This document shows positions 13,757 to 35,680 of a stretch of 64,000 nt of DNA, piece after piece. The notes below the pieces were generated by a model. That model was not told the origin of the DNA, made no database searches, and worked only from the letters and a program-made list of their open reading frames with translations. The position numbers and the translations under genes were made by a program. The DNA lies in the NCBI GenBank assembly GCA_052034405.1, contig JBPOIO010000023.1:15340-79339 (forward strand). The letters run 5' to 3'. The stretch is from Candidatus Magasanikiibacteriota bacterium. Its GTDB lineage: Bacteria > Patescibacteriota > Patescibacteriia > Magasanikbacterales > UBA922. The first letter of the stretch is position 1, and each line of letters opens with the position of its first letter.

Positions 13757-14788
13757 ATGCGAAAACTTCTTATTGCCACCAGTAACCCTGGAAAATTCAA
13801 AGAAATGAAAGAATTTTTCAAAACTTCGGGTTTTGAAATTGTTTCACTTTCGGATCTTGGCATCACAGATGCACCAGAAGAACCCTATGATGTTATTGAA
13901 TACAATGCCATGCTCAAGGCCAAATATTACGCTGAGAAGACGGGGATCCTATCACTAGCAGATGATACGGGTCTTTTTATCCCAGCGCTGAATAACTGGC
14001 CAGGAGCCCACGCAGCACGAATTGCAGACACGACAGAAAAACGTCGTGAAACAGTTCTTGAAAAAATGAAAGGAATAGATGATCGAAAAGCATATTTTGA
14101 AGTTGCTTTAGCTCTTTATGATCCAACAGAAAAATTGAGTTTTTTGAGTTTTGGCCGTGTCGATGGAAGCATTCTCGAAACTCCACAAGGTGATGAGACA
14201 AAAGGTTTTGGATTTGATCAAATATTTTTTTCGAATGAATTGAACAAAGCGTTTTCCGAACTTTCTGTTCAAGAAAAAAATGCTACTAGTCATCGAGGAA
14301 AAGCCCTGATCAAGATGGAATATTTTTTGAAAAAACAATTTGGCGCACGAAATATCGTTGTGCCTTGTGCCATTGTTATTCAGAACGGAAAAATCCTCAT
14401 GCAAAAACGAAATGACCCGCATCGACCAAATTATCACGAAAAATGGGAATTTCCAGGTGGGGGAGTAGATTTCAAAGAACAGATCATTGAAAATGTAGTG
14501 CGAGAGACAAAAGAAGAAACAGGACTCATTGTAGAACCACTCAAATTACTTCAGCATATTGCAGTAGAATGGCAAGAATATCCGACATTTGCATACCAAG
14601 TGTATTTGATTCCTTATGTTTGCAAAATTGTTGGCGGTGAAATAAATCCACGCGATCACGAAGTCCTTGAAGCACGCTGGTTTGAACTTGATGAAGTGTC
14701 AAAGTATCCACTCGTCGGAGAAAATGCACGTATGTACGAAAAATTTTTACCAGAGCTCAAAGAAGTAATCAAAGAACATAATTTATAA
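13757..14788 (+). CDS. Fusion of non-canonical purine NTP pyrophosphatase (RdgB/Ham1) and NUDIX hydrolase
   Basis: N-terminal half has LLIATSNPGKFKEMKEF and a SHRGKAL-type end typical of Ham1/RdgB. C-terminal half has Nudix box GGGVDFKEQIIENVVRETKEETGL. Confidence 0.75.
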   Translation: MRKLLIATSNPGKFKEMKEFFKTSGFEIVSLSDLGITDAPEEPYDVIEYNAMLKAKYYAEKTGILSLADDTGLFIPALNNWPGAHAARIADTTEKRRETVLEKMKGIDDRKAYFEVALALYDPTEKLSFLSFGRVDGSILETPQGDETKGFGFDQIFFSNELNKAFSELSVQEKNATSHRGKALIKMEYFLKKQFGARNIVVPCAIVIQNGKILMQKRNDPHRPNYHEKWEFPGGGVDFKEQIIENVVRETKEETGLIVEPLKLLQHIAVEWQEYPTFAYQVYLIPYVCKIVGGEINPRDHEVLEARWFELDEVSKYPLVGENARMYEKFLPELKEVIKEHNL

Positions 14789-15151: not shown

Positions 15152-16408
15152 ATGATTGATATCAAATTTATACGCGAAAATGTAGAACTCATAAAACAAA
15201 ATTGTGCAAATCGTCATGTGAAAGTGGATATTGATGCACTTTTGTCAGCAGATGAAGAACGACGAAATATTTTGAAACAAATTGAAGACCTTCGTGCCAC
15301 TCGCAATAGTGGATCAAAAGGAAAACCTACTCCAGAAGAAATTGAAAAAATGAAGCTTGTCGGGGAGGAAATCAAAAAACTTGAAGAAACACAAGTTGGT
15401 GTCGATACAAAATATCGTGAACTCTTGATGCAAGTACCAAACCTGACACATCCAGATACTCCAGTTGGTGGTGAAGATGCATTCAAAGTCGTATTTGAAA
15501 AAACAGCAACTCCATTTGCATTTACTCCAAAAGATCACGAGGCTCTCATGCTCGACCTTGATATGATTGACTTTGAACGCGGTGCCAAAGTTGCAGGAGC
15601 CAAATTTTACTTTGCAAAAAATGATTTGGTTCGCCTCAATCAAGCCCTTGTGAATTATGGCATGGATATTGTAAGTAAACATGGCTACACGCTCATGGAA
15701 ACCCCAGACATGGCTAAAGTAGAAATTCTTGAAGGAATTGGTTTCAATCCACGTGGCGCAGAAACACAGGTTTACTCTGTAGAAAATACAGATCTTTGTC
15801 TGATTGGAACAGCAGAAATTACGGTTGGGGGATTTCACCAAAATGAAATGCTTGACCTTTCAAAAGGTCCAATCAAATATGTTGCCCTGTCACATTGCTA
15901 CCGCACCGAAGCGGGCGCATATGGCCGCACGAGTAAAGGACTCTACCGCGTACACCAATTTGCCAAACTTGAAATGTTTATCTATTGCCGACCAGAAGAG
16001 AGTGAAGCCTTGCACCAAGAATTGCTCGCTATTGAACGAGAAATCGCAGATGGTCTTGGATTCCCATATCGCGTGATTGACATCGCCAGTGGCGATTTGG
16101 GAGGTCCAGCGTATCGCAAATACGACATCGAGGCATGGATGACCATGAAGGGTGAAGGCGAAAATCAAGGGGACTATGGTGAAATTACTTCAACGAGTAA
16201 TTGTCTTGATTACCAATCACGCCGCCTCAATATCCGTTATAAAAAAGAAGACGGAACAACAGAATTTGTACATACCCTCAATGGTACTGCAGTGGTGCTC
16301 AGTCGTTTTCCAATCGCAATTCTCGAAAACTATCAAAATGCAGATGGATCAATCACTGTTCCAGAAGCACTCCGAAAATATATGGGTAAAGATCTAATCA
16401 CAAAATAA
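15152..16408 (+). CDS. serS: Seryl-tRNA synthetase
   Basis: N-terminal coiled-coil arm. Class II core (FRTEAGAYGRTSKGLYRVHQFAKLE, GTAVVLSRFPIAILENYQ). Confidence 0.9.
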   Translation: MIDIKFIRENVELIKQNCANRHVKVDIDALLSADEERRNILKQIEDLRATRNSGSKGKPTPEEIEKMKLVGEEIKKLEETQVGVDTKYRELLMQVPNLTHPDTPVGGEDAFKVVFEKTATPFAFTPKDHEALMLDLDMIDFERGAKVAGAKFYFAKNDLVRLNQALVNYGMDIVSKHGYTLMETPDMAKVEILEGIGFNPRGAETQVYSVENTDLCLIGTAEITVGGFHQNEMLDLSKGPIKYVALSHCYRTEAGAYGRTSKGLYRVHQFAKLEMFIYCRPEESEALHQELLAIEREIADGLGFPYRVIDIASGDLGGPAYRKYDIEAWMTMKGEGENQGDYGEITSTSNCLDYQSRRLNIRYKKEDGTTEFVHTLNGTAVVLSRFPIAILENYQNADGSITVPEALRKYMGKDLITK

Positions 16409-16409: not shown

Positions 16410-17129
16410 ATGCAAAATAAAACACTCGTCATCATTCCAGGTTGGGGAGGAAGCCACGAAACATGGGCAGATTTTATGAACCTCATGAAGCCCTATTTCA
16501 AAGACGTCGTTTGTATTGATCTCCCTGGATTTGGTGGAGTTGATACTCCCAAAACTGTCTGGGGAGTAGAACAGTACGCTGAATATGTAAGGCGAAAAAT
16601 TGAAAAGTTACCAGAGGGACCAAAAGTTATCATGGGACATTCTTTTGGGGGGCAAGTATCAGCCTACCTCGTCGCCAATAACCCTCAAGTTGCCCAAAAA
16701 TATATTCTTGTAGCCGGAGCTGTTTTTCGTCCATCTCGTCCTATTCGCCGCGCCTTCTTTTTTATTATCGCAAAATTTGGTAAAATACTCTTCAAGATAC
16801 CCGTGATTGAAAATGTTGCTATTTGGGCCAAGAAAATACTCTACAAAACAGCAGACTCGCCAGACTATGCAGCCACAAGCGGCATCAAACGCGACATCTT
16901 CAAAAAGATTATTCGCCAAGACCTCAGCGAGCAGCTTCCAAAAATCACCATAGCAACCCTAATTGTCTGGGGAACACTCGATAGTTATCTTCCTGTCAAA
17001 GACGCATACAGAGCACAAAAATTGATAGCGCATTCCAAACTTGAAATTATTCCTGGTGGTACACACGGATTGCACCTTCACCAAAAACAAAAACTCCTTG
17101 AACTCATTACTAAATTTGTCTATGACTAA
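16410..17129 (+). CDS. Alpha/beta hydrolase fold protein
   Basis: GHSFGG nucleophile elbow. C-terminal HG...H. Confidence 0.7.
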   Translation: MQNKTLVIIPGWGGSHETWADFMNLMKPYFKDVVCIDLPGFGGVDTPKTVWGVEQYAEYVRRKIEKLPEGPKVIMGHSFGGQVSAYLVANNPQVAQKYILVAGAVFRPSRPIRRAFFFIIAKFGKILFKIPVIENVAIWAKKILYKTADSPDYAATSGIKRDIFKKIIRQDLSEQLPKITIATLIVWGTLDSYLPVKDAYRAQKLIAHSKLEIIPGGTHGLHLHQKQKLLELITKFVYD

Positions 17130-18693
17130 TAGTGTCGTAGTCTCTGGTTTTCTTATTATCTGTGCCTGGATTACTACAGCTCTTTTTGACTATCTCTCCT
17201 ACGCTTATTTTTGGCAGCTCAAAGAGTATCGACTTGATCGTTTCAAAGACTTTCTCAAAAGTAACCAAGGTGAAGAAATATGGAAGGACCCGCGTTTTTT
17301 GTGGCGGGGAATTGGAGCACTCGCACTTCTTATCTCACCCATAGCCTATATCGCAATTATCGTTTTAAGCTTGGATATTCTTTTTCTTTTCTTTTCAAAA
17401 AGAAAATTTCGTCGCCCAGTGTTCACTAAAAAAAGTATATTGATCCTTCTTTTTTCACTCCTTGCAGAAGTTTTTCTCTTTCAACTTTTTCCACTCAATC
17501 TTGCCTTGGTACTTTTCCTTCGATTTTTTATTATTTCTCTGTTGGTATTTTTATTTTATATTCCATCACGTCTTGCAAAATTATTTTTCATTTGGCGTGC
17601 TAGTACAAAGCTTGCCTCATATAAAAACCTTGTCACCATTGGCATTACCGGAAGTTATGGCAAAAGTTCAGTCAAAGAATTTTCTGCACATTTTCTTTCT
17701 GCAGACTTCAAAGTTATAAAAACTCCAAACAATATCAATAGTGAAATTGGTATTGCCAAATTTATTTTGAAAACAGATTTTACTGGAATTGATTTTTTTG
17801 TCTGTGAAATGGGAGCTTACCGAATAGGAGAGATCAAAACGATCTGTGATATGGTCAAACCAAAAGTGGGAATACTCACAACTATTGCCGAGCAACATCT
17901 TGCACTCTTTGGAAGTATCCAAAATATCCAATCTGCCAAGTACGAACTTCTTCGTGCAATTCCAAAGGATGGTTTAGTTATTACCAACGCAGATAATCCA
18001 CTGTGTACAGAATTCCTAAAGGATTTAAACTGCAAAAATATTGAAACCTGTGGAGTCGAAGAACGAAATCATCCAACATTTTTAATTGTACGCAACGAAG
18101 CAACTATCAAAGGCATTGAATTTGAAGGGATTTATCATGGACAAAGAGGGGATATGAATATTCCGGTTCTTGGTGCTCACCAAGCCTACAATGCAGCTCT
18201 CTCAGTCATGCTTGCTGTTAATATGGAAGTTGATCCACAACATATTGTTGAAGCCGGCAAAACAATTCCTCAAAACCTTCAAGGAACACTCAAAAAATAT
18301 AGCTATGGAAAAGCTACTATCATTGACGATAGTTACAATTCCAATCCAGCTGGTTTTCGTGCTGCTATCGAAGTACTCTCCATGTTTTCTTCCAAGAAAA
18401 AACGTATAGTCATTACACGTGGTATGCTCGAACTTGGGGATCAAAGTGATGAAATGCATGAAAAAATTGGCGAAGAAATTTCTTATTCCTGTGATGAACT
18501 TGTACTTATTACTCCAGATTTTGTGGATTCTATCAAAAAAGGAATTCGTGAAAAATATCACACCACGGTTCAATGTATTTTTACTCCAGAAAAACTTCTT
18601 GAATATATCAAAACTCTTAAAACAGAAGATTGTGTTGTTTTACTTGAAAATCGTATTCCAACACGAGTCAAAGAAGAACTGCACAAATCCTAA
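17122..18693 (+). CDS. Mur ligase family protein (MurF-like) with an N-terminal ~190-aa polytopic membrane domain
   Basis: Internal ATG at 17122 after the hydrolase stop. N-terminal hydrophobic helices. Then GITGSYGKSSVKEF P-loop and Mur ligase middle/C domains (DDSYNSNP). Confidence 0.7.
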   Translation: MTNSVVVSGFLIICAWITTALFDYLSYAYFWQLKEYRLDRFKDFLKSNQGEEIWKDPRFLWRGIGALALLISPIAYIAIIVLSLDILFLFFSKRKFRRPVFTKKSILILLFSLLAEVFLFQLFPLNLALVLFLRFFIISLLVFLFYIPSRLAKLFFIWRASTKLASYKNLVTIGITGSYGKSSVKEFSAHFLSADFKVIKTPNNINSEIGIAKFILKTDFTGIDFFVCEMGAYRIGEIKTICDMVKPKVGILTTIAEQHLALFGSIQNIQSAKYELLRAIPKDGLVITNADNPLCTEFLKDLNCKNIETCGVEERNHPTFLIVRNEATIKGIEFEGIYHGQRGDMNIPVLGAHQAYNAALSVMLAVNMEVDPQHIVEAGKTIPQNLQGTLKKYSYGKATIIDDSYNSNPAGFRAAIEVLSMFSSKKKRIVITRGMLELGDQSDEMHEKIGEEISYSCDELVLITPDFVDSIKKGIREKYHTTVQCIFTPEKLLEYIKTLKTEDCVVLLENRIPTRVKEELHKS

Positions 18694-18696
18694 ATT

Positions 18697-19944
18697 ATGA
18701 ATTTTTTCAAAACTCCAGTTTTTACGGGATTTATGCCAAATCTCCTCGCAAAAGAAGTGCTTCTCGCTCTCTCTTTTATGTTTCCTTGGAATTGGTCAAA
18801 ACTGCAATCGGGGAAAGCGCTCTCTTTACTCGAAAAACAATTCGAAACATTTTTTGGAATAAACTCTGTTATTGCTTTTGATAGTGGCCGTAGTAGCCTC
18901 CAAATTGCCCTAGAAAGCCTTGAAATGTCACAAAACGATGAAGTACTCCTCCAAGCCTATACCTGCTCTGTTGTGTCAAATGCCGTCATTTGGTCTGGGG
19001 CTCGTCCAGTATATGTTGATATAAACAAAAATTTCAACATGGACCCAAGTGATTTGGAGAAAAAAATCACTCCTCGTTCCAAAGTTCTCATTATTCAACA
19101 CACATTTGGAATTCCCGCAGATCTTGAAGCACTTGTAGCCATTGCCCAAAAACATAATCTTACTATCATTGAAGATTGTGCGCATGTCATTGGTGGTATG
19201 TATAAAAATAAAATGCTCGGAACTTGGGGAGATATTGCTATGCTCAGCTTTGGAACAGACAAATCTATTTCCTGTGGTCGAGGTGGAGCTTTGCTTACAA
19301 ATAATACAAATCTAGCAGAAAAATTTCGCAAAAGACAAAAAACACTTCCTCATCTTTCAAAAAAATATATTCTGCAACAACTCTACACTTTTATTCTTTT
19401 TTTTCTTTGCAAAGCACTGTATACTATTGGTATTGGAAAATTTGTACTCGCACTTTCAAAAAAATTGCATCTGAGTAGTCGAATTATTGAACAAAATGAA
19501 AAAAAAGGAAAGCAAAGTCCAAAATTTCCTGCACAATTGGCAAATACATTGGCAGAAATTGCACTTCATCAAATGAAACATTTGAATGAATTTAATGAGC
19601 ACAGAATTGCTCTTGCAGAAAACTATAAAAAAAATATACAAAATTCTCAAATAGAAACCCCAGAAAAAATTCAAAATATTCCATTTTTACGTTTTCCAAT
19701 TTTAGTCAAAAATCCAGCAAAACTTCACAAAATGGCGCAAAAAGAGGGGATACTCCTTGGAGATTGGTATACCACAGTTATTGCACCTTCTGATGTAGAT
19801 GAAAGTAAAATGGGCTATACAAAAGGATCTTGTCCCAATGCAGAAAAACTTGCGCAAAGATCAATAAATCTCCCAACACATATTCATATTTCTCAAAAAA
19901 ATCAAGAAAAAATCATCAAGATTGTAAATTCTTATGCCGAATAA
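18697..19944 (+). CDS. DegT/DnrJ/EryC1/StrS-family PLP-dependent sugar aminotransferase
   Basis: Fold-type I motifs (LLQAYTCSVVSNAVIWSGARPVYVD, AMLSFGTDKSISCGRGGALLTN). Confidence 0.8.
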   Translation: MNFFKTPVFTGFMPNLLAKEVLLALSFMFPWNWSKLQSGKALSLLEKQFETFFGINSVIAFDSGRSSLQIALESLEMSQNDEVLLQAYTCSVVSNAVIWSGARPVYVDINKNFNMDPSDLEKKITPRSKVLIIQHTFGIPADLEALVAIAQKHNLTIIEDCAHVIGGMYKNKMLGTWGDIAMLSFGTDKSISCGRGGALLTNNTNLAEKFRKRQKTLPHLSKKYILQQLYTFILFFLCKALYTIGIGKFVLALSKKLHLSSRIIEQNEKKGKQSPKFPAQLANTLAEIALHQMKHLNEFNEHRIALAENYKKNIQNSQIETPEKIQNIPFLRFPILVKNPAKLHKMAQKEGILLGDWYTTVIAPSDVDESKMGYTKGSCPNAEKLAQRSINLPTHIHISQKNQEKIIKIVNSYAE

Positions 19945-20965
19945 GCTGCGTATTCAAGAGATAGAAAGCCCACAAATTTGGGAATCTTTTGTTCGATCCC
20001 AAAAATCTACAGTTTTTGTACAAGCTCCTCAATATGGAGAATTTTATAAATCTCTTGGTGAAAATTTTTTTATTCTCGGAATTTTAAAAGAAGGGGAGCT
20101 TGTTGGAGGTTCTTTGGTAGTGACAACACATGCACGTCGTGGCAATTTCCTCTATCTTCCCTATGGTCCATTTTTACCAGAACAAAATAGGCAAGAAGCC
20201 CTGCAACTTTTCACAGAACACCTTGAAACATACGCAAAAAAACACAAATATTCTTTTATTCGTGTGAGTCCTTTTCTCGAGGAAAATGCTGAAAACATTG
20301 CTCTTTTCAAACATTGCAAATACCACCCTGCTCCCATGCATGCTCTTGCAGAAACAACATGGATTTTGAATATACAAGCATCCGAAGAAACACTTCTCAA
20401 AAACATGAACAAAAATCATCGTAATTTGATTCGTCGTTGTGAACGTGAAGGAGTTGTGATTACACAATCAACAAACCCAAAAGATCTTGATGGTCTTGAC
20501 GAAATGCTTGAGGTAACAGCACAAAGACATAACTTTACAAAATTTTCAAAAAAATATATTACTTCAGAATTCAAGAGTTTTCTCCCAGATAATACGGTTT
20601 TATTTGAAGCCAGACTTCCAGATGGTCGGCTCGATGGAGCTGCTATTATCATGTTTTATGGTACTATGGCCTGTTATCGTCATAGTGCTTCACTTGGCCT
20701 AGATAACAAGCTTCCAACCTCATATCTTCTTCAATGGAAAGTAATTCAAGAAGCTCAAAAAAGAGGCATGCACTGGTATAATTTTTGGGGTATTGCTCCC
20801 CTTGATGCCCACAAAAAACATCCATTTTTTGGTATTACCCATTTCAAAAAAGGTTTTGGTGGAGAAATACGAAATATTTTGCACTGTCAGGATTTTGTTG
20901 TCAGCAAAAAATATTATCTCAATTGGATTATAGAACAATTTCGAAAACGAAAACGTGGTTTCTAA
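19934..20965 (+). CDS. FemAB/FemX-family aminoacyl-tRNA-dependent peptidoglycan peptidyltransferase
   Basis: GNAT-duplication architecture. Motifs HRNLIRRCEREGV and ...AAIIMFYGTMACYRHSAS. Confidence 0.65.
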   Translation: MPNKLRIQEIESPQIWESFVRSQKSTVFVQAPQYGEFYKSLGENFFILGILKEGELVGGSLVVTTHARRGNFLYLPYGPFLPEQNRQEALQLFTEHLETYAKKHKYSFIRVSPFLEENAENIALFKHCKYHPAPMHALAETTWILNIQASEETLLKNMNKNHRNLIRRCEREGVVITQSTNPKDLDGLDEMLEVTAQRHNFTKFSKKYITSEFKSFLPDNTVLFEARLPDGRLDGAAIIMFYGTMACYRHSASLGLDNKLPTSYLLQWKVIQEAQKRGMHWYNFWGIAPLDAHKKHPFFGITHFKKGFGGEIRNILHCQDFVVSKKYYLNWIIEQFRKRKRGF

Positions 20966-20968: not shown

Positions 20969-21925
20969 ATGAGAGATTTTTTTCATAAAAAAAATAAACA
21001 GACAGGACATATTCCACCGGGATATCGTTCTTTTGAACATAGCACGACAATTCCTGAAAAAAATAAACAAAGATCATGGAAATGGTATAGCAAAATTATC
21101 GTTATTTGTATTACTTTTTTGGGAACTTTTGGACTTCTTTTTTTACACCCTTTTTTTCAGATTCATACAATTCAAATTCGAGGTCTGCATCGTATTGAAG
21201 AAGGGGATATACGTGATACCGTAAATGGTATTCTCTCCTATAAACGTTTTTTGATTTTCCCACAAAATAATTTTTTTGTTCTTGATATTGATGATCTCCA
21301 TACTATTTTGGAACAAAAATTTGGTCTTCAAAAATTAACTATTACAAAACGCTTTCCCCATAGTGTACATATTGTTTTAGAAGAAAAACTTTCTTCTATC
21401 ATGTATGATAATGGCGAACAATATGCCATGATTGATGCGAAAGGAAAGGTTTCTGAAATTTTACGCATTATTGATGATAGTGAATGGCGTGTTATCAAAA
21501 AACGTGTTACAAGTACGAGTGAAGGTGGCACAGAAGTTTCTACTGAACAAATTGTTTCACGATTTCACACTCCAAATTATAAAAAAATTATCAGCGAAGT
21601 AGGGGACTATCCCCTCGTGTATGATAACAGAAGTAAAAAGGTAGGAAAAGGTGAACAAGTTTTGAATGAAAATACAGTCCAAGAAATCATTGAGTGGTAT
21701 GAAGCCCTCAAAAAAACAGATATTCCTTTTACTTATTTTTACTTGGAACAAGAGGTTGGTGATGTAACAATCAAAACCACAGAAGGTTGGAATATCAAAG
21801 CCAAACTCGATAAAAACATTCCAGAACAATTTCAAACCTTAGAATATATTTTGAAACAAAAAGTAAAACGTCCAGACATCCAATATATTGATGTTCGTTT
21901 TTCGGGTCGTGCTTTTTGGTTGTAA
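20969..21925 (+). CDS. ftsQ: Cell division protein FtsQ/DivIB-like (TM helix plus POTRA domain)
   Basis: N-terminal TM. POTRA-like IHTIQIRGLHRIEEGDIRDTV. Beta-domain PHSVHIVLEEK. Follows murF and fem genes. Confidence 0.55.
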   Translation: MRDFFHKKNKQTGHIPPGYRSFEHSTTIPEKNKQRSWKWYSKIIVICITFLGTFGLLFLHPFFQIHTIQIRGLHRIEEGDIRDTVNGILSYKRFLIFPQNNFFVLDIDDLHTILEQKFGLQKLTITKRFPHSVHIVLEEKLSSIMYDNGEQYAMIDAKGKVSEILRIIDDSEWRVIKKRVTSTSEGGTEVSTEQIVSRFHTPNYKKIISEVGDYPLVYDNRSKKVGKGEQVLNENTVQEIIEWYEALKKTDIPFTYFYLEQEVGDVTIKTTEGWNIKAKLDKNIPEQFQTLEYILKQKVKRPDIQYIDVRFSGRAFWL

Positions 21926-24331: not shown

Positions 24332-25726
24332 TTAACCAAATTTGGTATCTTTTGCAAATGAACCACCCTGTACACCACTATCCATAAAAATCTCTTCGGG
24401 GGCATTTGAAGGCGCAAGGAGTGATTCAATAGGAAGTCCCATTGGAGGTTCTGCACTTTTCATTTTTGTTTTTTGAAGTGATGGGGTTTTTACATGAGAC
24501 ATTGGAAAATGCCAAATAGTTGCGAGTTCTTCTACATTGAGAACACAGGGATTCGCCCCAGTACCAATTTTTCGTTTTTTATAAGCCTTCATGAGCAATT
24601 TTTTACGATCATTGCTTCGCTTTTTGGCAAACATATAGTGAGCCCCACTTGAAAATTTTGGTACAATAGAATTTGATGTTGGAATATTATATTGATGCAG
24701 TGCCCCAATAATAGCATTAACGGCACGACCAGGTTGAAAGACTTCTTTTCGTGCCAAATAAAGCGCACGCATTTTGGTTTTGAAGCCAAGCATGCTAATT
24801 TTTTTCTCCATAGCCTCAACTAAAGTTTTTTGGCCAGGAGTTAGAAAACTCAAATTATTCATAGGTCCACCATGATCGTCATGAGACTCCGAAGCTTCAC
24901 GTGCAAAAACTTGATCTCCTACTTGTTCAAGAAGTTTAAAGGGAGCCGAAGTAATAGCATCAACAATTTTATTTCCTCCATGGTGATGTGACTCGGCACC
25001 AATAATTTCGTTTATTTTTTCCATGGCGTGATGTTTCCAACTATTGGAAATTGGTTCGATCAAAATCTGAAACCAAATTTGTTCTCCAGGGCCAATACGT
25101 GTAAAACTCTCCAAAAATGCTCCCATTGGATCTTTTAAGACAGTATCTTTGGAAATGCTATGTTCAAATTCACGATAAGTACGAATAGGATAGGCATCGT
25201 CTGTTGCAAGAGTAAAATCCCCTGCCCACATGTCATACTCTGAATCTGGAAAAGTATCCGGAGCCTTGGTCACATAATCTTCTACTTCAATGACTTCAAT
25301 ATCAGGGTACTGTGCATACAGAGCCGCTTCAACCAAATCACGATAACTCTCTTCGGTACGAATCAAAAATTGAATATAACCCTCTATACTAATAATTTCA
25401 AAACTAAACCATTTTTGTTTGTAACCATGCCAAAATTTTTCACCAATACCAGGGTCATTGAAAGCTCCAGCAAGATGAAAGAAAAATTGTTCTACAGCCT
25501 TTGGTGTTTGTACATTAATAGCAGGAGTATCAACAGCAAGCAAAACCCATTTCCAACTATGTTTATAAAGCTCCTGACGATATTCTAGAAAGTATTCTTC
25601 AAATACAAGAGCAATAAGCCAAAAAAATATAAGATAGCCAAACATGGCAAAAAGTTGGGTGACGACTTCAAATGGAGTTTGAAGAAAAAAAACACTGATT
25701 GTATCCAAAATTGTTGCAAAGTCCAT
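24332..25726 (-). CDS. Hypothetical protein, N-terminal TM helices plus large soluble domain
   Basis: 464-aa ORF. No P-loop or other recognisable catalytic motif. Confidence 0.5.
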   Translation of the reverse strand: MDFATILDTISVFFLQTPFEVVTQLFAMFGYLIFFWLIALVFEEYFLEYRQELYKHSWKWVLLAVDTPAINVQTPKAVEQFFFHLAGAFNDPGIGEKFWHGYKQKWFSFEIISIEGYIQFLIRTEESYRDLVEAALYAQYPDIEVIEVEDYVTKAPDTFPDSEYDMWAGDFTLATDDAYPIRTYREFEHSISKDTVLKDPMGAFLESFTRIGPGEQIWFQILIEPISNSWKHHAMEKINEIIGAESHHHGGNKIVDAITSAPFKLLEQVGDQVFAREASESHDDHGGPMNNLSFLTPGQKTLVEAMEKKISMLGFKTKMRALYLARKEVFQPGRAVNAIIGALHQYNIPTSNSIVPKFSSGAHYMFAKKRSNDRKKLLMKAYKKRKIGTGANPCVLNVEELATIWHFPMSHVKTPSLQKTKMKSAEPPMGLPIESLLAPSNAPEEIFMDSGVQGGSFAKDTKFG

Positions 25727-26005: not shown

Positions 26006-26926
26006 TTATTTTCTTGTTTTTCTCCATTCTTCCCAAGATACCAGAAGAGAACTTGCAATAAAAATTGATGAATAAGTTCCAAAGAATACTCCGATAATCA
26101 GTGCAAGTGAAAAAGATCTTGTTGTTTCTCCACCAAAGAAATACAGAGCAATCAAAGTCAATTGTACTGTAAGTGAAGTGTTGACAGAACGACCAATCGT
26201 TTCATTGACAGCAAGATTCACTGTCTGAGCAAAATCTTTGATACCTTTGAGCAATACTTTTTCACGAATACGATCAAATACTACGATCGTATCGTTAACA
26301 GAATAACCCAAGATTGTCAGCAAGGCTACAACAAAAGAAATATCTACTTCAATACCCAGAAAATGTCCAAGAAGTGAGAAAATACCCATTGTAATTACTA
26401 CATCGTGCAAGAGCGCTACAACAGCCGTTACACCATATTTCCATGAAGGAACAGATTTTGAGACCTTACGAAAGGCATAGGCAATAAAGAGCACAATACC
26501 AATAGATACGGCCAAAATAGCATAGAGTGATCGAGTTTTGAGCTGTTCACTAAATGCTGGTCCAATAGTTTCAAGACGTTCTTCACGAACTTGGACAGTA
26601 TCTTTTTGAAATTGATCACGAAGACCAAGAAGAATCTTTTGGTGTTCTGCTTCTGAAATAAATGGCAATTTTATAATAATAGATTGATCACCAGAAAATT
26701 GCAGTTTTGATGGAGTAAATCCAGTTTTTTCAATAGTTGTCCTTATTTCAGTTGTCTGTGGACGAGCGCCACCAGTAAAACTCACTTCAAGAAGTGAACC
26801 ACCAGTAAAATCAAGTCCGGGTTTCAGACCAAAAACAAATAAAGAAATAAGACTGGTCACGAATAAAATTCCTGAAAAGATAAAGGCAATATTTCTTTTT
26901 TTAATAATTTCGTACAACATAGACAA
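26006..26926 (-). CDS. secF: Protein translocase subunit SecF
   Basis: 6-TM SecF pattern (LDFTGGSLLEV, ...YSVNDTIVVFDRIRE). Confidence 0.85.
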   Translation of the reverse strand: MSMLYEIIKKRNIAFIFSGILFVTSLISLFVFGLKPGLDFTGGSLLEVSFTGGARPQTTEIRTTIEKTGFTPSKLQFSGDQSIIIKLPFISEAEHQKILLGLRDQFQKDTVQVREERLETIGPAFSEQLKTRSLYAILAVSIGIVLFIAYAFRKVSKSVPSWKYGVTAVVALLHDVVITMGIFSLLGHFLGIEVDISFVVALLTILGYSVNDTIVVFDRIREKVLLKGIKDFAQTVNLAVNETIGRSVNTSLTVQLTLIALYFFGGETTRSFSLALIIGVFFGTYSSIFIASSLLVSWEEWRKTRK

Positions 26927-28987
26927 TTATTTGGATGAATTATTTTTGTCACCTTGTTTGAAACCAAGAAACAAAAAGTGAGCACGATTTTCAAACCAAG
27001 GAGCAATAAATCGAAGCATAACACGAGTCACTGTAATCGCAGTAAACAAACTCACCAAGATACCAAGAGACAATGTTACCGCAAAACCTTTGACAAAACT
27101 TGAACCAAACCACATAAGAAGGACACAGGTAATAAGTGTTGACATGTTTCCATCGCGAATAGAAGACCAAGCACGAATAAATCCTTCTTCAATACCTGTT
27201 TTCAATGATTTACCAAGACGAAGTTCTTCTTTCAAGCGTTCGAAGATCAAAATATTTGCATCAATCGCAATACCAATAGACAGGATAAAACCAGTAATAC
27301 CTGAAAGTGATAGTGTTACTCCAATAAATTTGAATACCGCAAGTGTGAGTACAATGTACAGACCAAGTGAGAATACAGAAAGAAGTCCTGGTAAACGGTA
27401 ATAAAGAACCATGAAGATAAAGATGAGCAGTACTGCGATTTCAGCCGCTCTCAAACTCTTATACAGAGAATCAGCACCAAGACTCGCACCAATACTTTGC
27501 TGAGAAAGAAGTGTTACTGGTACAGGAAGAGCTCCAGCATTGAGACGTTGTGAAAGAAGTTTTGCTTCTGTTACATTGAATCCTCCAGTAATAACAGCTT
27601 GACCACCAGTAATTGCTTGATTCACATTTGGTGAACTAATTACTTCTCCATCAAGGAAAATACCCACAGGTTTTCCAACATTTTTTCGAGTGATTTCTTC
27701 AAAGAGTTTGGCACCTTCTTCATTAAATTGAAGAGATACTTGAATTTCTGAAGTTTGAGGATTTGTTGTAACTTCTGCTTTTTTCAATTGTTTTCCAGAT
27801 AATGCTGTTGTTTTCCAAGCATCAGTTGGTGGAAGTACTTCTTCTTTTGTTTTTTTGTCCAAGAAAATTTTCCAAATTTCGTAATCTTTGGTTACATTTT
27901 CTGCTGTTTTATAAATAATATGATAACCAAATTGTGTTTCTACTGGTCCAACAATTTCTCCAGCCTTGGCAGCAAATAATACATTTTCAAATTCTGAAAT
28001 CATGACTCCTTTTGGGAATGTTCCAAGTTCACCACCTTTTACAGCAGTTGAACGATCTGTTGAGTATTGTTTTGCAAGATCAGAAAAGTTTTTTGCATTT
28101 GCTTGTGCATACACATCTTGTGCAATTTTGAGCGCATCTGCTTTTGTAGATGTTGCAGTACAACCAGGAGCTCCACTAAAACAAATCAAAATATGTTTTG
28201 ATGTTACTTCTACTTCACCAGATTGTTCTTTTCCACGTTTCAAAATATAGTATCCATCTGCTTCGTCAAGAACTTTATCTGTAAGTTGACCTTCTTTGGC
28301 TTTTTCTGCCCAAGGATATGCAATTTGATTATTTTGTGCATATTTTTTTACAAACCCCATATATCCTCCATTGTTTTTTGTTGCTTCATCTTCTGAATAT
28401 TGTTTGGCAACATTTTCAAATGGAGTTTTTTTCTTGAGATCAATAAGTGCAGTATCTGCTTTTGTTTTTTGAGCCGCATTAAAATCTGCAATCATTTTTT
28501 TCTCATCTGCAGTCAAATCACGTGGGACTTCTTTATTTTCTTCTTTAAATTCCAAAATTGGAGTTTCACCAATCAATTTTGTTGCTTCGCTAACATCGGT
28601 TACTCCAGGAAGTTCTACATTAATATGATATTCATTTCCTACTTTACTTGTTTCAATGTTTGGTTCCCCTACTCCAAAACCATTGATACGACGTTCAATA
28701 ACATCGCGGGCACCTTCAACCGCTCCACTACGTTCTGTTTGTGCAAGATTTTCTACATTTGCGTTATAAACAAGATGTACACCACTTTGAAGATCAAGCC
28801 CAAGACGAAATTTTTTCTCTGGAACATGTGGAATACTCATGTGAATTTTTGAGTTGACCTTGTCAACACCACGATTTACTTGTTCTGGAACAACAAAAGA
28901 GAGACTGGCAAGAAAGAGAACGATAACTCCAGCAATTCCCCAACGGATTTGTGAACGAAGGTTAACTTGTGTTTTTTGTGCTTTCAT
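26927..28987 (-). CDS. secD: Protein translocase subunit SecD with parvulin-type PPIase-like insert in periplasmic domain
   Basis: SecD TM core at C-terminus. Periplasmic region has PpiC-like segment (SKHILICF...AKQYSTDRSTAVKGGELGTFPKGVMISEFENVLFAAKAGEIVGPVETQFGYHIIYKT) and a second degenerate copy upstream. Confidence 0.85.
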   Translation of the reverse strand: MKAQKTQVNLRSQIRWGIAGVIVLFLASLSFVVPEQVNRGVDKVNSKIHMSIPHVPEKKFRLGLDLQSGVHLVYNANVENLAQTERSGAVEGARDVIERRINGFGVGEPNIETSKVGNEYHINVELPGVTDVSEATKLIGETPILEFKEENKEVPRDLTADEKKMIADFNAAQKTKADTALIDLKKKTPFENVAKQYSEDEATKNNGGYMGFVKKYAQNNQIAYPWAEKAKEGQLTDKVLDEADGYYILKRGKEQSGEVEVTSKHILICFSGAPGCTATSTKADALKIAQDVYAQANAKNFSDLAKQYSTDRSTAVKGGELGTFPKGVMISEFENVLFAAKAGEIVGPVETQFGYHIIYKTAENVTKDYEIWKIFLDKKTKEEVLPPTDAWKTTALSGKQLKKAEVTTNPQTSEIQVSLQFNEEGAKLFEEITRKNVGKPVGIFLDGEVISSPNVNQAITGGQAVITGGFNVTEAKLLSQRLNAGALPVPVTLLSQQSIGASLGADSLYKSLRAAEIAVLLIFIFMVLYYRLPGLLSVFSLGLYIVLTLAVFKFIGVTLSLSGITGFILSIGIAIDANILIFERLKEELRLGKSLKTGIEEGFIRAWSSIRDGNMSTLITCVLLMWFGSSFVKGFAVTLSLGILVSLFTAITVTRVMLRFIAPWFENRAHFLFLGFKQGDKNNSSK

Positions 28988-29067: not shown

Positions 29068-31908
29068 CTAGCCCCCACGCTCCATGCGTTGGCGCTTTCT
29101 TCGGTCTTTTTTACTCTCATGCTTTTTTCCATCATTTTGAACTGTGCGTACTGCTTTTTGGGATACCTCACTACTTCCCTCTTGGACCAAGTTGTCGTTG
29201 GCCATAATTGTTGGCACGAGTTCAATTCCATGCTGTACCTTATAAAATGCATAGACCACCTCTTTTTGGATATTGAGAAGAAGTGCTTGAAACATTTGAT
29301 AGGCCTCGCGTTTGTATTCAATAAGTGGATCACGCTGTCCATATCCACGAAGACCAATACCGGTGCGCAAATAATCGATATTGATAAGATGTTCTACCCA
29401 AAGCGTATCAATACTACGAAGAAGCAATGACTTTTCAATCGAATGCATTATTTTGTTTGCTTCTTCGGGATTCACTTGTAATTTTTGAATTGAGTTTTCA
29501 ATTTTTGTATATTCTTCTTTTGCTCGACCAAAAAGATACTGGATTATTTCTTCTTTTGCTTCGATTTCTTCGAGTTTTCCAGATTGCTGATGCGCTCCCA
29601 TTTCAAAAACTTTTGCCTTATCAGCTTCTGTAAATGAATATATTGTTGCCATTACCTGACAAATTTCTTGAAGATTCCAATCTCCATGTTCACGACTTTC
29701 TTCATTCTCAACTTCTACTTCCAATTTTTGAGTATGAAATTGTACAACTTGTTCGATTTCATTTTCTACAGAATTCAAAATCATGTCTTTAAGTGAGACA
29801 AATTTTACTTCTTCAACTTTTTCCAATTCTTCATCAACTTCTTCTTCGTCACTCACAAGAGGACTTGGTTTTTCTGTTATACCAATTTCCATGTCGTAGA
29901 GTTCCAAAATATTTTTTCGTTTTTTATATATAACAGAGCGATGACGATTGAGCACATCATCATATTCAAGCAAATGTTTACGAATATCAAAGTTATGACC
30001 TTCTACTTTTTTTTGTGCATTCTCAAGAATTCTTGAAATCATGTTTTGTTCAATCGGCATGTCGTCTGGCACCTTCATGCGTGTCATCACATTTTTGAGA
30101 CGATCCCCAGCAAAAATACGCATCAAGTCATCGTCTGTTGAAACAAAAAATTGTGTTTCTCCAGGATCTCCCTGACGACCAGAACGTCCACGAAGCTGAT
30201 TGTCGATACGACGCGCTTCATGACGCTCGGTTCCAAGGACAAAAAGTCCACCAGCAGATTTTACAATTTCAATATCCTCTGCACTCGCTGGCGTTCCACC
30301 AAGTTTGATATCCACACCACGTCCAGCCATATTGGTAGCGAGGGTCACTGCTCCAGGTCGTCCGGCTTGGGCAATAATTTCTCCTTCACGTTCATGATTT
30401 TTTGCATTCAAAATTTCGTGAGTGATACCAAGACTATTCAAATAGTTACTCAAACGTTCATTTTTTTCTACAGAAATAGTACCCACCAAAATTGGCTGTT
30501 GTTTTTCTCTACATTCTTGAATTTTTTTTGCAACGGCTTTGAATTTTACGACTTCATCTTTATAGATTCGATCTGGCAAATCCACGCGTGCAGCAACTTT
30601 ATTGGTTGGGATAACCAACACATCGAGGTTATAAATACGACGAAATTCTTCTTCTTCTGTTTGCGCAGTACCTGTCATACCAGACAACTTTTTGTACATG
30701 CGGAACAAATTTTGAAATGTAATCGTCGCAAGTGTTTGACTCTCACGTTGAATTTTTACATTTTCTTTTGCTTCAATTGCTTGGTGAAGTCCTTCACTAT
30801 AACGGCGACCTTCCATTTTTCGTCCAGTAAACTCATCAATAATCATGACTTCATCTCCATCAACCACATAATCTTTGTCACGTTTGAAAAGCACTTCGGC
30901 TTTGAGCGCTTGTTCAATATGATGAATTGTTCGAATACCAGCTTCTACATAAATATTTTCAATACCGAGCCATTTTTCAAATTTTTCAATACCTTGCTCA
31001 GTCAAATTCACACTGCGCATTTTTTCATCTTTGTTATAATCGGTATTTTCCGAAAGTCCACGAACGAGTTTTGCAAATTGATAATATTGATCATTGGCAT
31101 CTTCATTTGGTGCAGAAATAATAAGCGGTGTACGAGCTTCGTCTACCAAAATAGAATCAATTTCATCGACAATCGCATAATGCATTTCATTGCCTGGTCG
31201 CATAACCATTTCTGAAATATCCTGGACCATGTTATCACGCAAATAATCAAAACCATATTCGTTATTGGTTCCGTAGGTAATATCACAAAGATATGCTTCT
31301 TGACGACTCGAAGCTCGCAAATATTCATTTTCTACTTTGAATACTTGTACTTCATTTTCTTCACTCGAAATAGTTTCTGCGCTTGGAGCGATAACACTTG
31401 GGTCAAAAACATAACTCACACGCATGTTTTGGATAATACCCGTAGACATGCCAAGAAAATGATAAATTTTCCCCATCCATACAGCATCACGACGTGCGAG
31501 ATAATCATTGACTGTTACTACGTGTACACCTTTGCCTTCAAGTGCATTGAGATAGGCCGGAAGTGTTGCTACCAATGTTTTTCCTTCACCAGTTCGCATT
31601 TCAGAAATCATACCATTATGAAGTGCCATACCACCAATCAGCTGCACATCAAAATGACGCATACCCGAAACGCGTTTTGCTGCTTCACGCACAGTGGCAA
31701 AAGCCTCGGGAAGAATATCATTCAAAACTTCTCCCTCTGAGAGACGTTTTTTGAATTCAGCTGTTTTGGCTTTGAGTGCATCATCTGAAAGCGCAGAAAA
31801 ATCAGCTTCTAGAGCATTGATTTGTTCAACAACTTTTTGATATTGCTTAATAATCTTGGAATTTTGACTCCCAAACACTCCTTCGTAGACAGATTTTAAA
31901 AGACTCAT
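29068..31908 (-). CDS. secA: Preprotein translocase ATPase SecA
   Basis: MRHFDVQLIGGMALHNGMISEMRTGEGKTLVATLPAYLNAL. DEAD-like motor. 946 aa. Confidence 0.9.
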   Translation of the reverse strand: MSLLKSVYEGVFGSQNSKIIKQYQKVVEQINALEADFSALSDDALKAKTAEFKKRLSEGEVLNDILPEAFATVREAAKRVSGMRHFDVQLIGGMALHNGMISEMRTGEGKTLVATLPAYLNALEGKGVHVVTVNDYLARRDAVWMGKIYHFLGMSTGIIQNMRVSYVFDPSVIAPSAETISSEENEVQVFKVENEYLRASSRQEAYLCDITYGTNNEYGFDYLRDNMVQDISEMVMRPGNEMHYAIVDEIDSILVDEARTPLIISAPNEDANDQYYQFAKLVRGLSENTDYNKDEKMRSVNLTEQGIEKFEKWLGIENIYVEAGIRTIHHIEQALKAEVLFKRDKDYVVDGDEVMIIDEFTGRKMEGRRYSEGLHQAIEAKENVKIQRESQTLATITFQNLFRMYKKLSGMTGTAQTEEEEFRRIYNLDVLVIPTNKVAARVDLPDRIYKDEVVKFKAVAKKIQECREKQQPILVGTISVEKNERLSNYLNSLGITHEILNAKNHEREGEIIAQAGRPGAVTLATNMAGRGVDIKLGGTPASAEDIEIVKSAGGLFVLGTERHEARRIDNQLRGRSGRQGDPGETQFFVSTDDDLMRIFAGDRLKNVMTRMKVPDDMPIEQNMISRILENAQKKVEGHNFDIRKHLLEYDDVLNRHRSVIYKKRKNILELYDMEIGITEKPSPLVSDEEEVDEELEKVEEVKFVSLKDMILNSVENEIEQVVQFHTQKLEVEVENEESREHGDWNLQEICQVMATIYSFTEADKAKVFEMGAHQQSGKLEEIEAKEEIIQYLFGRAKEEYTKIENSIQKLQVNPEEANKIMHSIEKSLLLRSIDTLWVEHLINIDYLRTGIGLRGYGQRDPLIEYKREAYQMFQALLLNIQKEVVYAFYKVQHGIELVPTIMANDNLVQEGSSEVSQKAVRTVQNDGKKHESKKDRRKRQRMERGG

Positions 31909-34689: not shown

Positions 34690-34702
34690 AATGAAGGGTA
34701 AC

Positions 34703-34828
34703 GGACGGGCTGTGGTAAGTTGAGATGCTCGACCAAATCAACTATTCCATCTTCAGTTGGTATGCGTGTTGGAGTGACAACAAGCTTACCTACTGATAAA
34801 GGAAACCATTCGGCTACCCAGCCCGTCC
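34703..34828 (+). ncRNA. Candidate structured GC-rich RNA element (unknown class)
   Basis: Closing helix GGACGGGCTG-(T)-GGTA (34703-34717) with TACC-CAGCCCGTCC (34815-34828), 14 bp. Internal hairpins CAACT/AGTTG and TGTTG/CAACA. No ORF. GC far above background. Ends just before a TATATAAT box. Confidence 0.3.
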
Positions 34829-34865
34829 GCCCATATATAATCACAACACAGCATAATTGTCAACT

Positions 34866-35660: not shown

Positions 35661-35680
35661 GTGCAGGTTTTTTTATTTTT
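35645..35680 (+). terminator. Intrinsic terminator
   Basis: CCTGC (35652-35656) pairs with GCAGG (35663-35667). Then TTTTTTT (35668-35674). Overlaps the stop codon. Confidence 0.55.

What the first reader, a model, noticed from the sequence alone, without database searches (positions are those of the whole stretch)
17122..18693. MurF-like Mur ligase fused to an N-terminal polytopic membrane domain
Mur ligases are normally soluble cytoplasmic enzymes. Here ~190 aa of hydrophobic helices (about 5-6 TM) precede the GITGSYGKSS P-loop and the Mur ligase middle and C-terminal domains. A membrane-tethered MurF could channel UDP-MurNAc-pentapeptide directly to MraY, or the N-domain may be an unrelated fused transporter or anchor.
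Basis: seen in the sequence. Interest (0 to 1): 0.55.

Follow-up and report, generated by a model that had tools for sequence, protein, structure and literature searches.

The report
Membrane-embedded MurF ligase of CPR bacteria
This is an intact cell-wall enzyme (a MurF-type ligase) whose usual nucleotide-binding head has been replaced by a conserved five-helix membrane domain; the design is shared by hundreds of uncultured CPR/Patescibacteria species, is auto-annotated as plain MurF, and I found no paper describing it.

Summary
Window 17122-18693 (+) is one uninterrupted 523-aa ORF. Residues 1-168 are a hydrophobic helical domain. Residues 169-523 are the Mur ligase central and C-terminal domains, and they match MurF far better than any other Mur ligase.

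The membrane domain is not added on top of MurF. It replaces the canonical N-terminal uridine-binding domain. Positive-inside counts over 31 homologues favour five membrane helices, N-terminus out, ligase in the cytoplasm.

The domain is more than a greasy anchor. Its two cytoplasmic loops carry motifs that are near-invariant across 233 relatives: QLKEYRxDR and RRPxxTxK. It has no Pfam family and no fold relative in the PDB. Every full-length protein that carries it is this kind of ligase.

At least 199 species genomes, mostly Magasanikbacteria and other CPR lineages, carry it. It always sits in the cassette alpha/beta-hydrolase, TM-MurF, DegT-type aminotransferase, FemX-type transferase, beside division genes. 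In one lineage the cassette lies between murE…glmS and mraY-ftsW-murG, roughly where murF normally sits.

Most likely it is these organisms' D-Ala-D-Ala-adding enzyme, working at the membrane. Not excluded: it acts on a lipid-linked precursor, or it is a paralogue. I rate it a new variant of a known kind, of moderate to high interest.

The parts
17122..18693 (+). TM-MurF gene (523 aa): 5-TM N-domain plus Mur ligase central and C-terminal domains
   Evidence: Single ORF. Pfam domains. Best NCBIfam match is TIGR01143 murF, 242 bits against 58 bits for murE. Best PDB sequence and fold matches are MurF.
17122..17625 (+). N-terminal membrane domain, aa 1-168. Helices 2-33 (TM1), 57-71 and 75-91 (TM2a/2b hairpin), 103-122 (TM3), 127-166 (TM4, running on into the ligase).
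   Evidence: Hydropathy. AF2 pLDDT 90, pTM 0.80. Positive-inside counts. No Pfam family. No PDB fold relative.
17215..17241 (+). Near-invariant loop motif QLKEYRLDR (aa 32-40), just after TM1, predicted cytoplasmic
   Evidence: Q32 and Y36 100%; K34 98%, R37 97%, D39 and R40 95%, E35 94%, L33 88%, over 233 family members. Coordinates.
17410..17433 (+). Basic loop RRPVFTKK (aa 97-104) between TM2b and TM3, predicted cytoplasmic
   Evidence: P99 100%, T102 97%, K104 91% over 233 sequences. The loop averages 5.1 K/R and 0.2 D/E.
17641..17667 (+). ATP-binding P-loop GITGSYGKS (aa 174-182)
   Evidence: Read in the sequence. G174, T176, G177, S178, G180 and K181 are >=95% conserved.
17644..18213 (+). 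Mur ligase central domain (aa 175-364), with E229, H259, K273 (AKYE) and N289 (NADN)
   Evidence: Pfam PF08245, 4.6e-37. Conserved residues.
18307..18642 (+). Mur ligase C-terminal domain (aa 396-507), with DDSYNSNP (aa 402-409, nt 18325-18348) and TRGMLELG (aa 432-439)
   Evidence: Pfam PF02875, 1.5e-13. Aligned with DDSYNAN and the ELG motif of E. coli and T. maritima MurF. Conservation.
16410..17129 (+). Alpha/beta-hydrolase gene, first gene of the conserved four-gene cassette
   Evidence: Pfam Abhydrolase_1/6. Directly upstream of TM-MurF in essentially all loci that extend that far.
18697..19944 (+). DegT/DnrJ/EryC1-type PLP sugar aminotransferase, third gene of the cassette
   Evidence: Pfam 4.8e-69. 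PseC/QdtB-like. Candidate PLP lysine K189 conserved, and a conserved insertion at aa 215-261. Synteny.
19934..20965 (+). FemAB/FemX-type aminoacyl-tRNA-dependent peptidyltransferase, fourth gene of the cassette
   Evidence: Pfam FemAB 2.2e-35. Weak FemX hits in NCBIfam and PDB. Synteny.
20969..21925 (+). FtsQ-like division protein (POTRA), downstream neighbour in Magasanik-type loci
   Evidence: POTRA_1 at 2.5e-4, which is below the Pfam cut-off. Conserved position.
15152..16408 (+). Seryl-tRNA synthetase, conserved upstream neighbour in Magasanik-type loci only
   Evidence: Pfam labels for the homologous genes. Synteny.

Best explanation
This is the MurF (D-Ala-D-Ala-adding enzyme) of a set of CPR/Patescibacteria lineages, in a rebuilt form.

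What the sequence shows. The central and C-terminal domains keep the residues associated with Mur ligase chemistry. That chemistry is established for the family: ATP-dependent acyl-phosphate formation on the stem peptide, then attack by the incoming amine. The canonical N-terminal domain, which in ordinary MurF holds the uridine-ribose of UDP-MurNAc-tripeptide, is gone. A conserved domain of five membrane helices, N-terminus outside, stands in its place. Its last helix runs straight into the helix that precedes the P-loop strand.

What I infer. The catalytic cleft sits on the cytoplasmic face of the membrane, next to two strongly conserved basic loops (QLKEYRxDR and RRPxxTxK). Those loops take over holding the diphosphate or nucleotide handle of the substrate, or dock the ligase to its partners. 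The enzyme makes MurNAc-pentapeptide at the membrane, where MraY, the neighbouring FemX-type transferase and the division machinery use it.

The enzyme belongs to a conserved four-gene unit: alpha/beta-hydrolase, TM-MurF, DegT-type aminotransferase, FemX-type transferase. The role of the hydrolase and the aminotransferase is not explained.
For: Intact ORF with conserved architecture.
- Searches show one ORF and the same architecture in relatives.

MurF identity of the ligase part.
- TIGR01143 murF scores 242 bits against murE 58 and murC 57.
- The top PDB sequence hits are all MurF: 3zl8, 1gg4, 2am1, 4cvk, 4qdi.
- The top Foldseek hits are MurF, E about 1e-25 over roughly 377 aligned columns.

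Catalytic residues kept.
- P-loop, E229, H259, K273, N289, DDSYNSNP, E437 and H446 are retained.

Canonical domain 1 absent.
- Searches find no trace of it.
- Its normal role is the uridine-ribose pocket (PMC11569785; PMC6085368).

Topology.
- Three K/R-rich segments average 6.8, 5.1 and 6.1 K/R. The short connectors average 0.6.
- The AF2 models are confident.

The N-domain is functional rather than a mere anchor.
- Loop residues are near-invariant over 233 sequences.
- All 113 long hits also carry the ligase.

Cell-wall context.
- The cassette is conserved in about 80 loci next to ftsQ or ftsA.
- In L069 the order is murE-murC-murA-glmU-glmS-abH-TM-murF-degT-femAB-mraY-ftsW-murG-ftsA, with no canonical murF.
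- No MurF-like ORF without the membrane domain occurs in any of the 84 fetched loci.
Against: - No whole genome could be scanned, so a second, canonical murF elsewhere in these genomes is not excluded.
- The murF HMM score of 242 bits is below NCBIfam's curated cut-off of 288.6.
- Nothing here shows which substrate or which incoming amino acids are used.
- The constant company of a sugar aminotransferase and an alpha/beta-hydrolase is not explained by a plain MurF role.
- The strict motif scan found the family in 199 species genomes only. It therefore looks like a feature of particular CPR lineages, not of all CPR.
Confidence: 0.6

Rival explanations
1. Same enzyme chemistry, different substrate carrier. 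TM-MurF adds the dipeptide to a lipid-linked intermediate (undecaprenyl-PP-MurNAc-tripeptide, with or without GlcNAc) rather than to the UDP-linked one. The membrane domain and its basic loops would bind the polyprenyl-pyrophosphate handle. MraY would then act before MurF in these bacteria, or TM-MurF would repair lipid-linked precursors that lack D-Ala-D-Ala.
For: - The uridine-binding domain is entirely missing.
- In its place is a membrane domain whose conserved residues are basic and sit at the membrane-cytoplasm interface.
- There is a precedent. [quoted passage not shown]
- The neighbouring FemX-type enzyme has lipid II-using relatives: the best PDB hit, 6snr, is 'Lipid II:glycine glycyltransferase'.
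Against: - No direct evidence.
- In L069 and L076, MurE also lacks its N-terminal domain yet has no membrane segment. Loss of that domain therefore does not by itself imply a lipid substrate.
- From general knowledge, MraY strongly prefers the pentapeptide.
- Membrane tethering alone explains the architecture more simply.
Confidence: 0.17
2. TM-MurF is a paralogue, not the housekeeping MurF. The four-gene cassette (hydrolase, ligase, sugar aminotransferase, FemX-like transferase) would build or modify a different membrane-bound glycopeptide, such as an extra stem-peptide or amino-sugar decoration or a secondary wall polymer. A canonical MurF encoded elsewhere would make UDP-MurNAc-pentapeptide.
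For: - The cassette is a tight, self-contained unit that keeps together even where its surroundings change.
- It contains a DegT-type nucleotide-sugar aminotransferase with no role in the textbook pathway.
- The murF HMM score is below the curated cut-off.
- This window also holds a second, divergent cell-wall-like cluster with an MraY-like and a MurC/Mpl-like gene, so paralogous wall systems may exist in this genome.
Against: - In L069 and L076 the cassette lies inside an otherwise ordinary murE…mraY-ftsW-murG cluster that has no other murF.
- Similarity to MurF is far higher than to any other Mur ligase, and the C-terminal DDSYNSNP and ELG motifs are MurF-like.
- No canonical murF appears in about 1.2 Mb of flanking CPR sequence.
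Confidence: 0.15
3. The architecture is an artefact: two adjacent genes (a small membrane protein and a truncated murF) joined by a sequencing or assembly error.
For: One JGI assembly of a near-identical strain calls the gene as 106 aa plus 424 aa, the sequences diverging in the A-rich tract.
Against: - The ORF in the window is uninterrupted.
- More than 230 full-length homologues of 480-620 aa from independent assemblies have the same architecture.
- The boundary is a continuous, confidently predicted helix, aa 127-166.
Confidence: 0.01

Closest known systems
Canonical MurF (UDP-MurNAc-tripeptide:D-Ala-D-Ala ligase; PDB 1GG4, 3ZL8, 4QF5, 4CVM)
   Same: Central ATP-binding domain and C-terminal domain, with the P-loop, E, H, K(AKxE), DDSYNxNP and ELG motifs. 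Best sequence and fold match. Located in dcw/division gene neighbourhoods.
   Different: The roughly 75-100-aa N-terminal domain that forms the uridine-ribose pocket is absent. A 168-aa five-helix membrane domain with its own conserved motifs replaces it. Canonical MurF is soluble.
MurT of the MurT/GatD lipid II amidotransferase
   Same: A Mur-family ligase that works at the membrane on a peptidoglycan precursor. [quoted passage not shown] Its fold is also recovered by Foldseek: 9sq9 and 9sqj, E about 1e-15.
   Different: From general knowledge, MurT is soluble, has a DUF1727-type C-terminal domain, needs GatD and amidates rather than ligates. No MurT family appeared among the 21 NCBIfam matches of this protein, and no gatD-like gene was seen among the annotated cassette neighbours.
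PgsB/CapB of the poly-gamma-glutamate synthetase
   Same: A Mur-ligase-family amide ligase that localises to the membrane, with a predicted N-terminal signal/anchor sequence and a cytoplasmic C-terminus (PMC7490850).
   Different: PgsB has a single N-terminal hydrophobic segment, not a conserved five-helix domain, and works with PgsC/PgsA. No PgsB family match was found, and no pgsC/pgsA-like families were labelled among the annotated neighbours.
Natural Mur chimeras (MurD-FtsW, MraY-MurG, MurE-MurF), surveyed in PMC10214165
   Same: They show that Mur ligases can be fused to polytopic membrane proteins (MurD-FtsW). They also show that MurF's N-terminal 'cap' can be dispensed with when another module covers it, as in B. 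pertussis MurE-MurF, PDB 8F5D.
   Different: Those are fusions of two complete, known enzymes. Here the partner is a domain with no Pfam family and no PDB fold relative, not seen standalone among full-length hits, and it replaces a whole ligase domain. That survey took only proteins over 600 aa from named species, so it would have missed this family.

Membership tests
Mur ligase superfamily | Central ATP-binding domain (PF08245) with P-loop, Mg-binding Glu, conserved His and the carbamylatable Lys | tested here: met
   PF08245 at 4.6e-37, aa 175-364. GITGSYGKS, E229, H259 and K273 conserved.
Mur ligase superfamily | C-terminal domain (PF02875) | tested here: met
   PF02875 at 1.5e-13, aa 396-507.
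MurF subfamily | Closer to MurF than to MurC/D/E, Mpl, FolC, CphA or MurT in sequence and fold | tested here: met
   TIGR01143 scores 242 bits against at most 58 bits for murE, murC and murD. The top PDB sequence and fold hits are all MurF.
MurF subfamily | Score above the curated NCBIfam cut-off for TIGR01143 (288.6 bits) | tested here: not met
   242.2 bits. Only profile positions 73-403 of 418 are matched because the N-terminal domain is missing.
MurF subfamily | Canonical N-terminal domain forming the uridine-ribose pocket (three-domain architecture) | tested here: not met
   No Pfam match in aa 1-173 at E<=10. PDB MurF chains align only from residue 73-102 onward. The region folds as membrane helices.
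MurF subfamily | Position in the dcw cluster next to murE/mraY | tested here: inconclusive
   In L069 and L076 the gene lies between murE…glmS and degT-femAB-mraY-ftsW-murG. In the window and most other loci it is next to ftsQ or ftsA but not mraY.
MurF subfamily | Adds D-Ala-D-Ala to UDP-MurNAc-tripeptide and is the only such enzyme in the genome | not testable with these tools
   No biochemistry was possible, and only +/-10 kb around each homologue could be fetched. No second murF was seen in 84 loci.
MurT (lipid II isoglutaminyl synthase subunit) | MurT-type sequence with DUF1727 C-terminal domain and a GatD partner gene | tested here: not met
   No MurT model among the 21 NCBIfam hits. The C-terminal domain is PF02875. 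The neighbours are abH, DegT and FemAB.
PgsB/CapB | PgsB-type sequence with pgsC/pgsA neighbours | tested here: not met
   No PgsB/CapB model among the NCBIfam hits. No pgsC/pgsA-like families among the annotated neighbours.

The most novel reading that the evidence does not exclude
In these CPR lineages the last peptide-adding step of peptidoglycan precursor synthesis has moved from the soluble UDP-linked intermediate to a lipid-linked one. TM-MurF would use its membrane domain and basic juxtamembrane loops to hold undecaprenyl-pyrophosphoryl-MurNAc-tripeptide, so that MraY acts before MurF. The co-inherited hydrolase, sugar aminotransferase and FemX-type transferase would further tailor the lipid-bound precursor. 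That would be a reordered peptidoglycan pathway.
Probability: 0.15. Interest if true: 0.85.

Novelty: new variant of a known kind. Interest (0 to 1): 0.58.

Why it matters
Mur ligases are textbook soluble enzymes, and their N-terminal domain is the part that recognises the UDP handle of the precursor. A large, conserved family exists in which that domain is swapped for a dedicated membrane domain. This shows that the boundary between the cytoplasmic and membrane stages of cell-wall synthesis is not fixed.

The family offers a natural test of the long-standing idea that Mur enzymes hand intermediates directly to MraY. It also raises the possibility of a lipid-linked MurF reaction.

It defines a protein domain for which I found no description (motifs QLKEYRxDR and RRPxxTxK), and a conserved four-gene cell-wall cassette in CPR bacteria, whose envelopes are largely unexplored. 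Practically, automatic annotation calls these proteins plain MurF and hides the difference.

Tried and rejected
- **Frameshift or two-gene artefact.** Rejected. The ORF is continuous and more than 230 homologues share the architecture. The one split call in a JGI assembly falls in an A-rich tract.
- **Upstream TTG start at 17041.** Rejected. Homologues and the identical public protein start at the ATG at 17122, and the extra 27 aa overlap the upstream gene.
- **AlphaFold-database fold search.** Not available on the machine.
- **N-domain as an independent protein or fused to other enzymes.** Not seen. All 113 hits of at least 450 aa carry the ligase. The 34 shorter hits look like contig-end or frameshift fragments.
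- **Second copy of the N-domain, or other Mur ligases, in the window.** Only the MurC/Mpl-like gene at 39076-40464.
- **PgsB/CapB or MurT membership.** Rejected.
- **DegT-like neighbour as a membrane protein.** Not supported. Its conserved insertion at aa 215-261 is not the most hydrophobic stretch in the family average.
- **Literature.** Four searches found no description of a membrane-embedded MurF. The Mur chimera survey does not list it.
- **Whether the same genomes also hold a canonical murF.** Could not be tested.
Full report

Yes. One search lists one ORF, 17041..18693, on the + strand. The ATG at 17122 gives a 523-aa protein. That ATG overlaps the stop of the upstream alpha/beta-hydrolase gene by 8 nt (ATGACTAA), which suggests the two genes are transcribed together. 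An identical 523-aa protein exists in public data (P0001), and relatives align from this methionine.

Pfam places Mur_ligase_M at aa 175-364 (4.6e-37) and Mur_ligase_C at aa 396-507 (1.5e-13). The P-loop GITGSYGKS is aa 174-182.

The preceding 168-173 aa are strongly hydrophobic. The family median GRAVY is 0.79, against -0.10 for the ligase part. Kyte-Doolittle peaks fall at about 4-29, 59-92 and 100-146.

There is no stop or frameshift. The one split version, a JGI assembly of a near-identical strain called as 106 aa plus 424 aa, diverges inside an A-rich tract at about aa 92-100. I treat that as an assembly or base-calling error.

**2. What is the ligase part?**

It is MurF-like, not generically Mur-like.
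- NCBIfam's murF model TIGR01143 scores 242 bits. murE, murC and murD score 51-58 bits.
- The best PDB sequence matches are all MurF: T. maritima 3ZL8 at 2.6e-30, then E. coli 1GG4, S. pneumoniae 2AM1, P. aeruginosa 4CVK and A. baumannii 4QDI.
- An AlphaFold2 model of the whole protein (pLDDT 89, pTM 0.82) is closest to MurF structures by Foldseek: 4QF5 at E 1.9e-25, about 377 aligned columns, TM-score 0.72 on the target.
- Residues associated with Mur ligase chemistry are kept and conserved in the family: the P-loop, E229, H259, K273 in AKYE, N289 in NADN, DDSYNSNP at 402-409, E437-L438-G439 and H446.

I therefore expect an active ATP-dependent amide ligase.

**3. What is missing, and what replaces it?**

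The murF profile is matched only from position 73 of 418. PDB MurF chains align only from residue 73-102 onward. No Pfam family matches aa 1-173 even at E<=10.

So the canonical N-terminal domain is absent rather than preceded by an extension. In ordinary MurF that domain forms the uridine-ribose pocket (PMC11569785). [quoted passage not shown]

In its place AlphaFold2 predicts, with pLDDT 90 and pTM 0.80, these helices:
- 2-33;
- two short helices, 38-46 and 48-54;
- a hairpin, 57-71 and 75-91;
- 103-122;
- a long helix, 127-166, that continues without a break into the helix preceding the P-loop strand.

Over 31 homologues, three segments are rich in K/R: 31-59 (6.8), 92-104 (5.1) and 149-170 (6.1). 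The connectors 73-75 and 123-126 and the N-terminus have almost none. By the positive-inside rule this gives five membrane helices, N-terminus outside, ligase in the cytoplasm. This topology is inferred, not shown.

**4. Is the membrane domain just an anchor?**

Probably not. In an alignment of 233 family members, the N-domain is only about 33% identical to the query on median (the ligase part is about 50%). A few positions are nevertheless close to invariant:
- Q32 100%, K34 98%, E35 94%, Y36 100%, R37 97%, D39 95%, R40 95%, G50 95%;
- P99 100%, T102 97%, K104 91%;
- A160 99%, K163 91%.

All of these lie in the predicted cytoplasmic loops or in the connecting helix. Within the bilayer, only charge-type conservation is seen: R/K62 86%, D/E85 84%, and E116 and R134 about 60%.

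This is the pattern expected for a scaffold that presents a structured, basic, juxtamembrane surface next to the catalytic cleft. It is not the pattern expected of a transporter.

**5. How widespread is it, and in what company?**

A profile of the N-domain alone, run against 1.84 billion representative proteins, found 795 clusters at E<=1e-3 and 283 at E<=1e-10. All 113 listed hits of at least 450 aa also carry the MurF-like ligase. The 34 shorter ones end abruptly, like contig-end fragments. So the domain was found only in this architecture.

A scan of one genome per GTDB species for the motif [WL]QLKEYRxD found 199 genomes. Most are titled Magasanikbacteria. Others are titled Parcubacteria, Paceibacter, Peregrinibacteria, Peribacteria, Gracilibacteria, Microgenomates or Spechtbacteria.

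Many records are titled 'uncultured Gammaproteobacteria', and a few Nitrospirota or Anaerolineales. They share the same CPR-type gene order, so I take those titles to be unreliable.

In about 80 loci the gene order is alpha/beta-hydrolase, TM-MurF, DegT-type aminotransferase, FemAB-type transferase. This order is essentially invariant wherever the contig extends far enough.
- In Magasanik-type genomes, Ham1-NUDIX and SerRS lie upstream and FtsQ downstream.
- In other lineages FtsA is nearby.

In L069 the cassette sits inside a large wall/division cluster: murE-murC-murA-glmU-glmU-like-HAD-glmS-abH-TM-murF-degT-femAB-mraY-ftsW-murG-x-ftsA. L076 has the same upstream half. This is roughly the slot where murF normally lies, and no other murF is present there. 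No MurF-like ORF lacking the membrane domain occurs in any of the 84 fetched loci.

**6. Most likely mechanism (confidence about 0.6)**

Shown:
- an intact MurF-type catalytic module;
- loss of domain 1;
- a conserved polytopic replacement;
- a cell-wall and division gene context.

Inferred:
- The enzyme is these organisms' D-Ala-D-Ala-adding enzyme.
- The ligase hangs from the inner face of the membrane.
- The QLKEYRxDR and RRPxxTxK loops substitute for domain 1 in holding the diphosphate or nucleotide end of the precursor, or dock the ligase to partners.
- The product is released where MraY and the FemX-type enzyme work.

**7. Rivals**

(a) *Lipid-linked substrate* (about 0.17).
- For: the uridine-binding domain has been replaced by a membrane domain with interfacial basic residues. 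MurT gives a precedent: it acts on lipid II and lipid I but not on UDP-linked precursors (PMC6085368).
- Against: MurE in L069 and L076 has also lost its N-terminal domain without gaining membrane helices. Domain loss alone is therefore not diagnostic.

(b) *Paralogue in a separate glycopeptide or modification pathway* (about 0.15).
- For: the cassette is self-contained, it includes a nucleotide-sugar aminotransferase of the PseC/QdtB type, and the murF HMM score is below the cut-off.
- Against: the L069 and L076 context, and the absence of any other murF in the flanks.

(c) *Artefact* (about 0.01). Refuted by the homologue survey.

**8. Comparison with what is known**

The protein is a member of the Mur ligase superfamily, and by sequence and fold it belongs to the MurF branch. 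It fails two formal MurF criteria: the curated HMM cut-off and the three-domain architecture with the uridine-binding domain. I therefore file it as a new variant rather than an ordinary member.

Related precedents:
- MurT, a Mur-family ligase that acts on a lipid substrate;
- PgsB/CapB, a Mur-family ligase that localises to the membrane, with a predicted N-terminal signal/anchor and a cytoplasmic C-terminus (PMC7490850);

The chimera survey considered only proteins over 600 aa from named species. It would have missed this family of 520-545 aa from uncultured organisms.

Four full-text searches found no paper describing a membrane-embedded MurF. Public annotations call these proteins plain MurF.

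**9. Verdict**

The finding is real and conserved. As far as the searchable literature shows, it is undescribed: a new variant of a known kind.

A cell-wall specialist would be surprised that a core Mur ligase has exchanged its substrate-handle domain for a dedicated membrane domain across hundreds of species. The family also makes the idea of Mur-to-MraY hand-off, and the possibility of a lipid-linked MurF step, directly testable.

The main gap is that no complete genome could be scanned for a second murF. There is also no biochemistry. Interest 0.58.

Noticed in passing
window 16410-20965; loci L001-L084: The cassette alpha/beta-hydrolase, TM-MurF, DegT-type PLP sugar aminotransferase, FemAB-type transferase is conserved as a block in about 80 CPR loci, even where the surrounding genes differ. 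A nucleotide-sugar aminotransferase and a hydrolase have no role in textbook peptidoglycan precursor synthesis, so the precursor may carry an undescribed modification.
   Followed up: partly
L069 476-1672 and L076 1606-2808: MurE in these CPR genomes is only 398-400 aa. Mur_ligase_M starts at aa 33 and the murE profile is matched from position 70, so MurE too lacks its N-terminal UDP-binding domain, here without any replacement.
   Followed up: partly
window 33484-41107: A second cell-wall-like cluster, next to murB (32418-33353, minus strand). It holds an ATP-grasp protein (33484-34689); an MraY-like protein of 405 aa whose first ~190 aa match nothing (36248-37465); an arginyltransferase-like protein (37381-38178); a divergent MurC/Mpl-like ligase (39076-40464, 270 bits, below the murC cut-off of 335); and five ORFs that matched nothing in the libraries searched.
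   Followed up: partly
window 26927-28987 (-): SecD with PPIC-type peptidyl-prolyl isomerase (rotamase) matches (two stretches; best at aa 247-358) between the SecD_1st (aa 90-150) and P1-head (aa 391-488) matches, followed by SecF (26006-26926) and SecA (29068-31908).
   Followed up: no
window 13757-14788: Fusion of an RdgB/Ham1 non-canonical NTP pyrophosphatase (aa 1-195) with a NUDIX/MutT-like domain (aa 200-330), conserved upstream of SerRS in Magasanik-type loci.
   Followed up: partly
window 18697-19944: The DegT-type aminotransferase keeps the candidate PLP lysine (K189). It also has a roughly 45-aa partly hydrophobic insertion (aa 215-261) that is present in all 65 aligned homologues from the cassette.
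   Followed up: partly
window ~17395-17440; proteins P0121/P0122: In a JGI assembly of a near-identical strain, the TM-MurF gene is called as two pieces (106 aa, annotated 'DNA modification methylase', and 424 aa). I read this as a frameshift in the A-rich tract, probably a sequencing error, which shows how annotation can hide the architecture.
   Followed up: yes
loci L005-L061 (record titles): Many GTDB representative MAGs carrying this CPR-type gene order are titled 'uncultured Gammaproteobacteria', and a few Nitrospirota, Anaerolineales or Bdellovibrionales. One is a 914-kb contig. The titles look like placeholder or mis-binned taxonomy.
   Followed up: no
window 24332-25726 (-): A 463-aa ORF between the Dus and SecF genes has no Pfam family at E<=0.001.
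   Followed up: no
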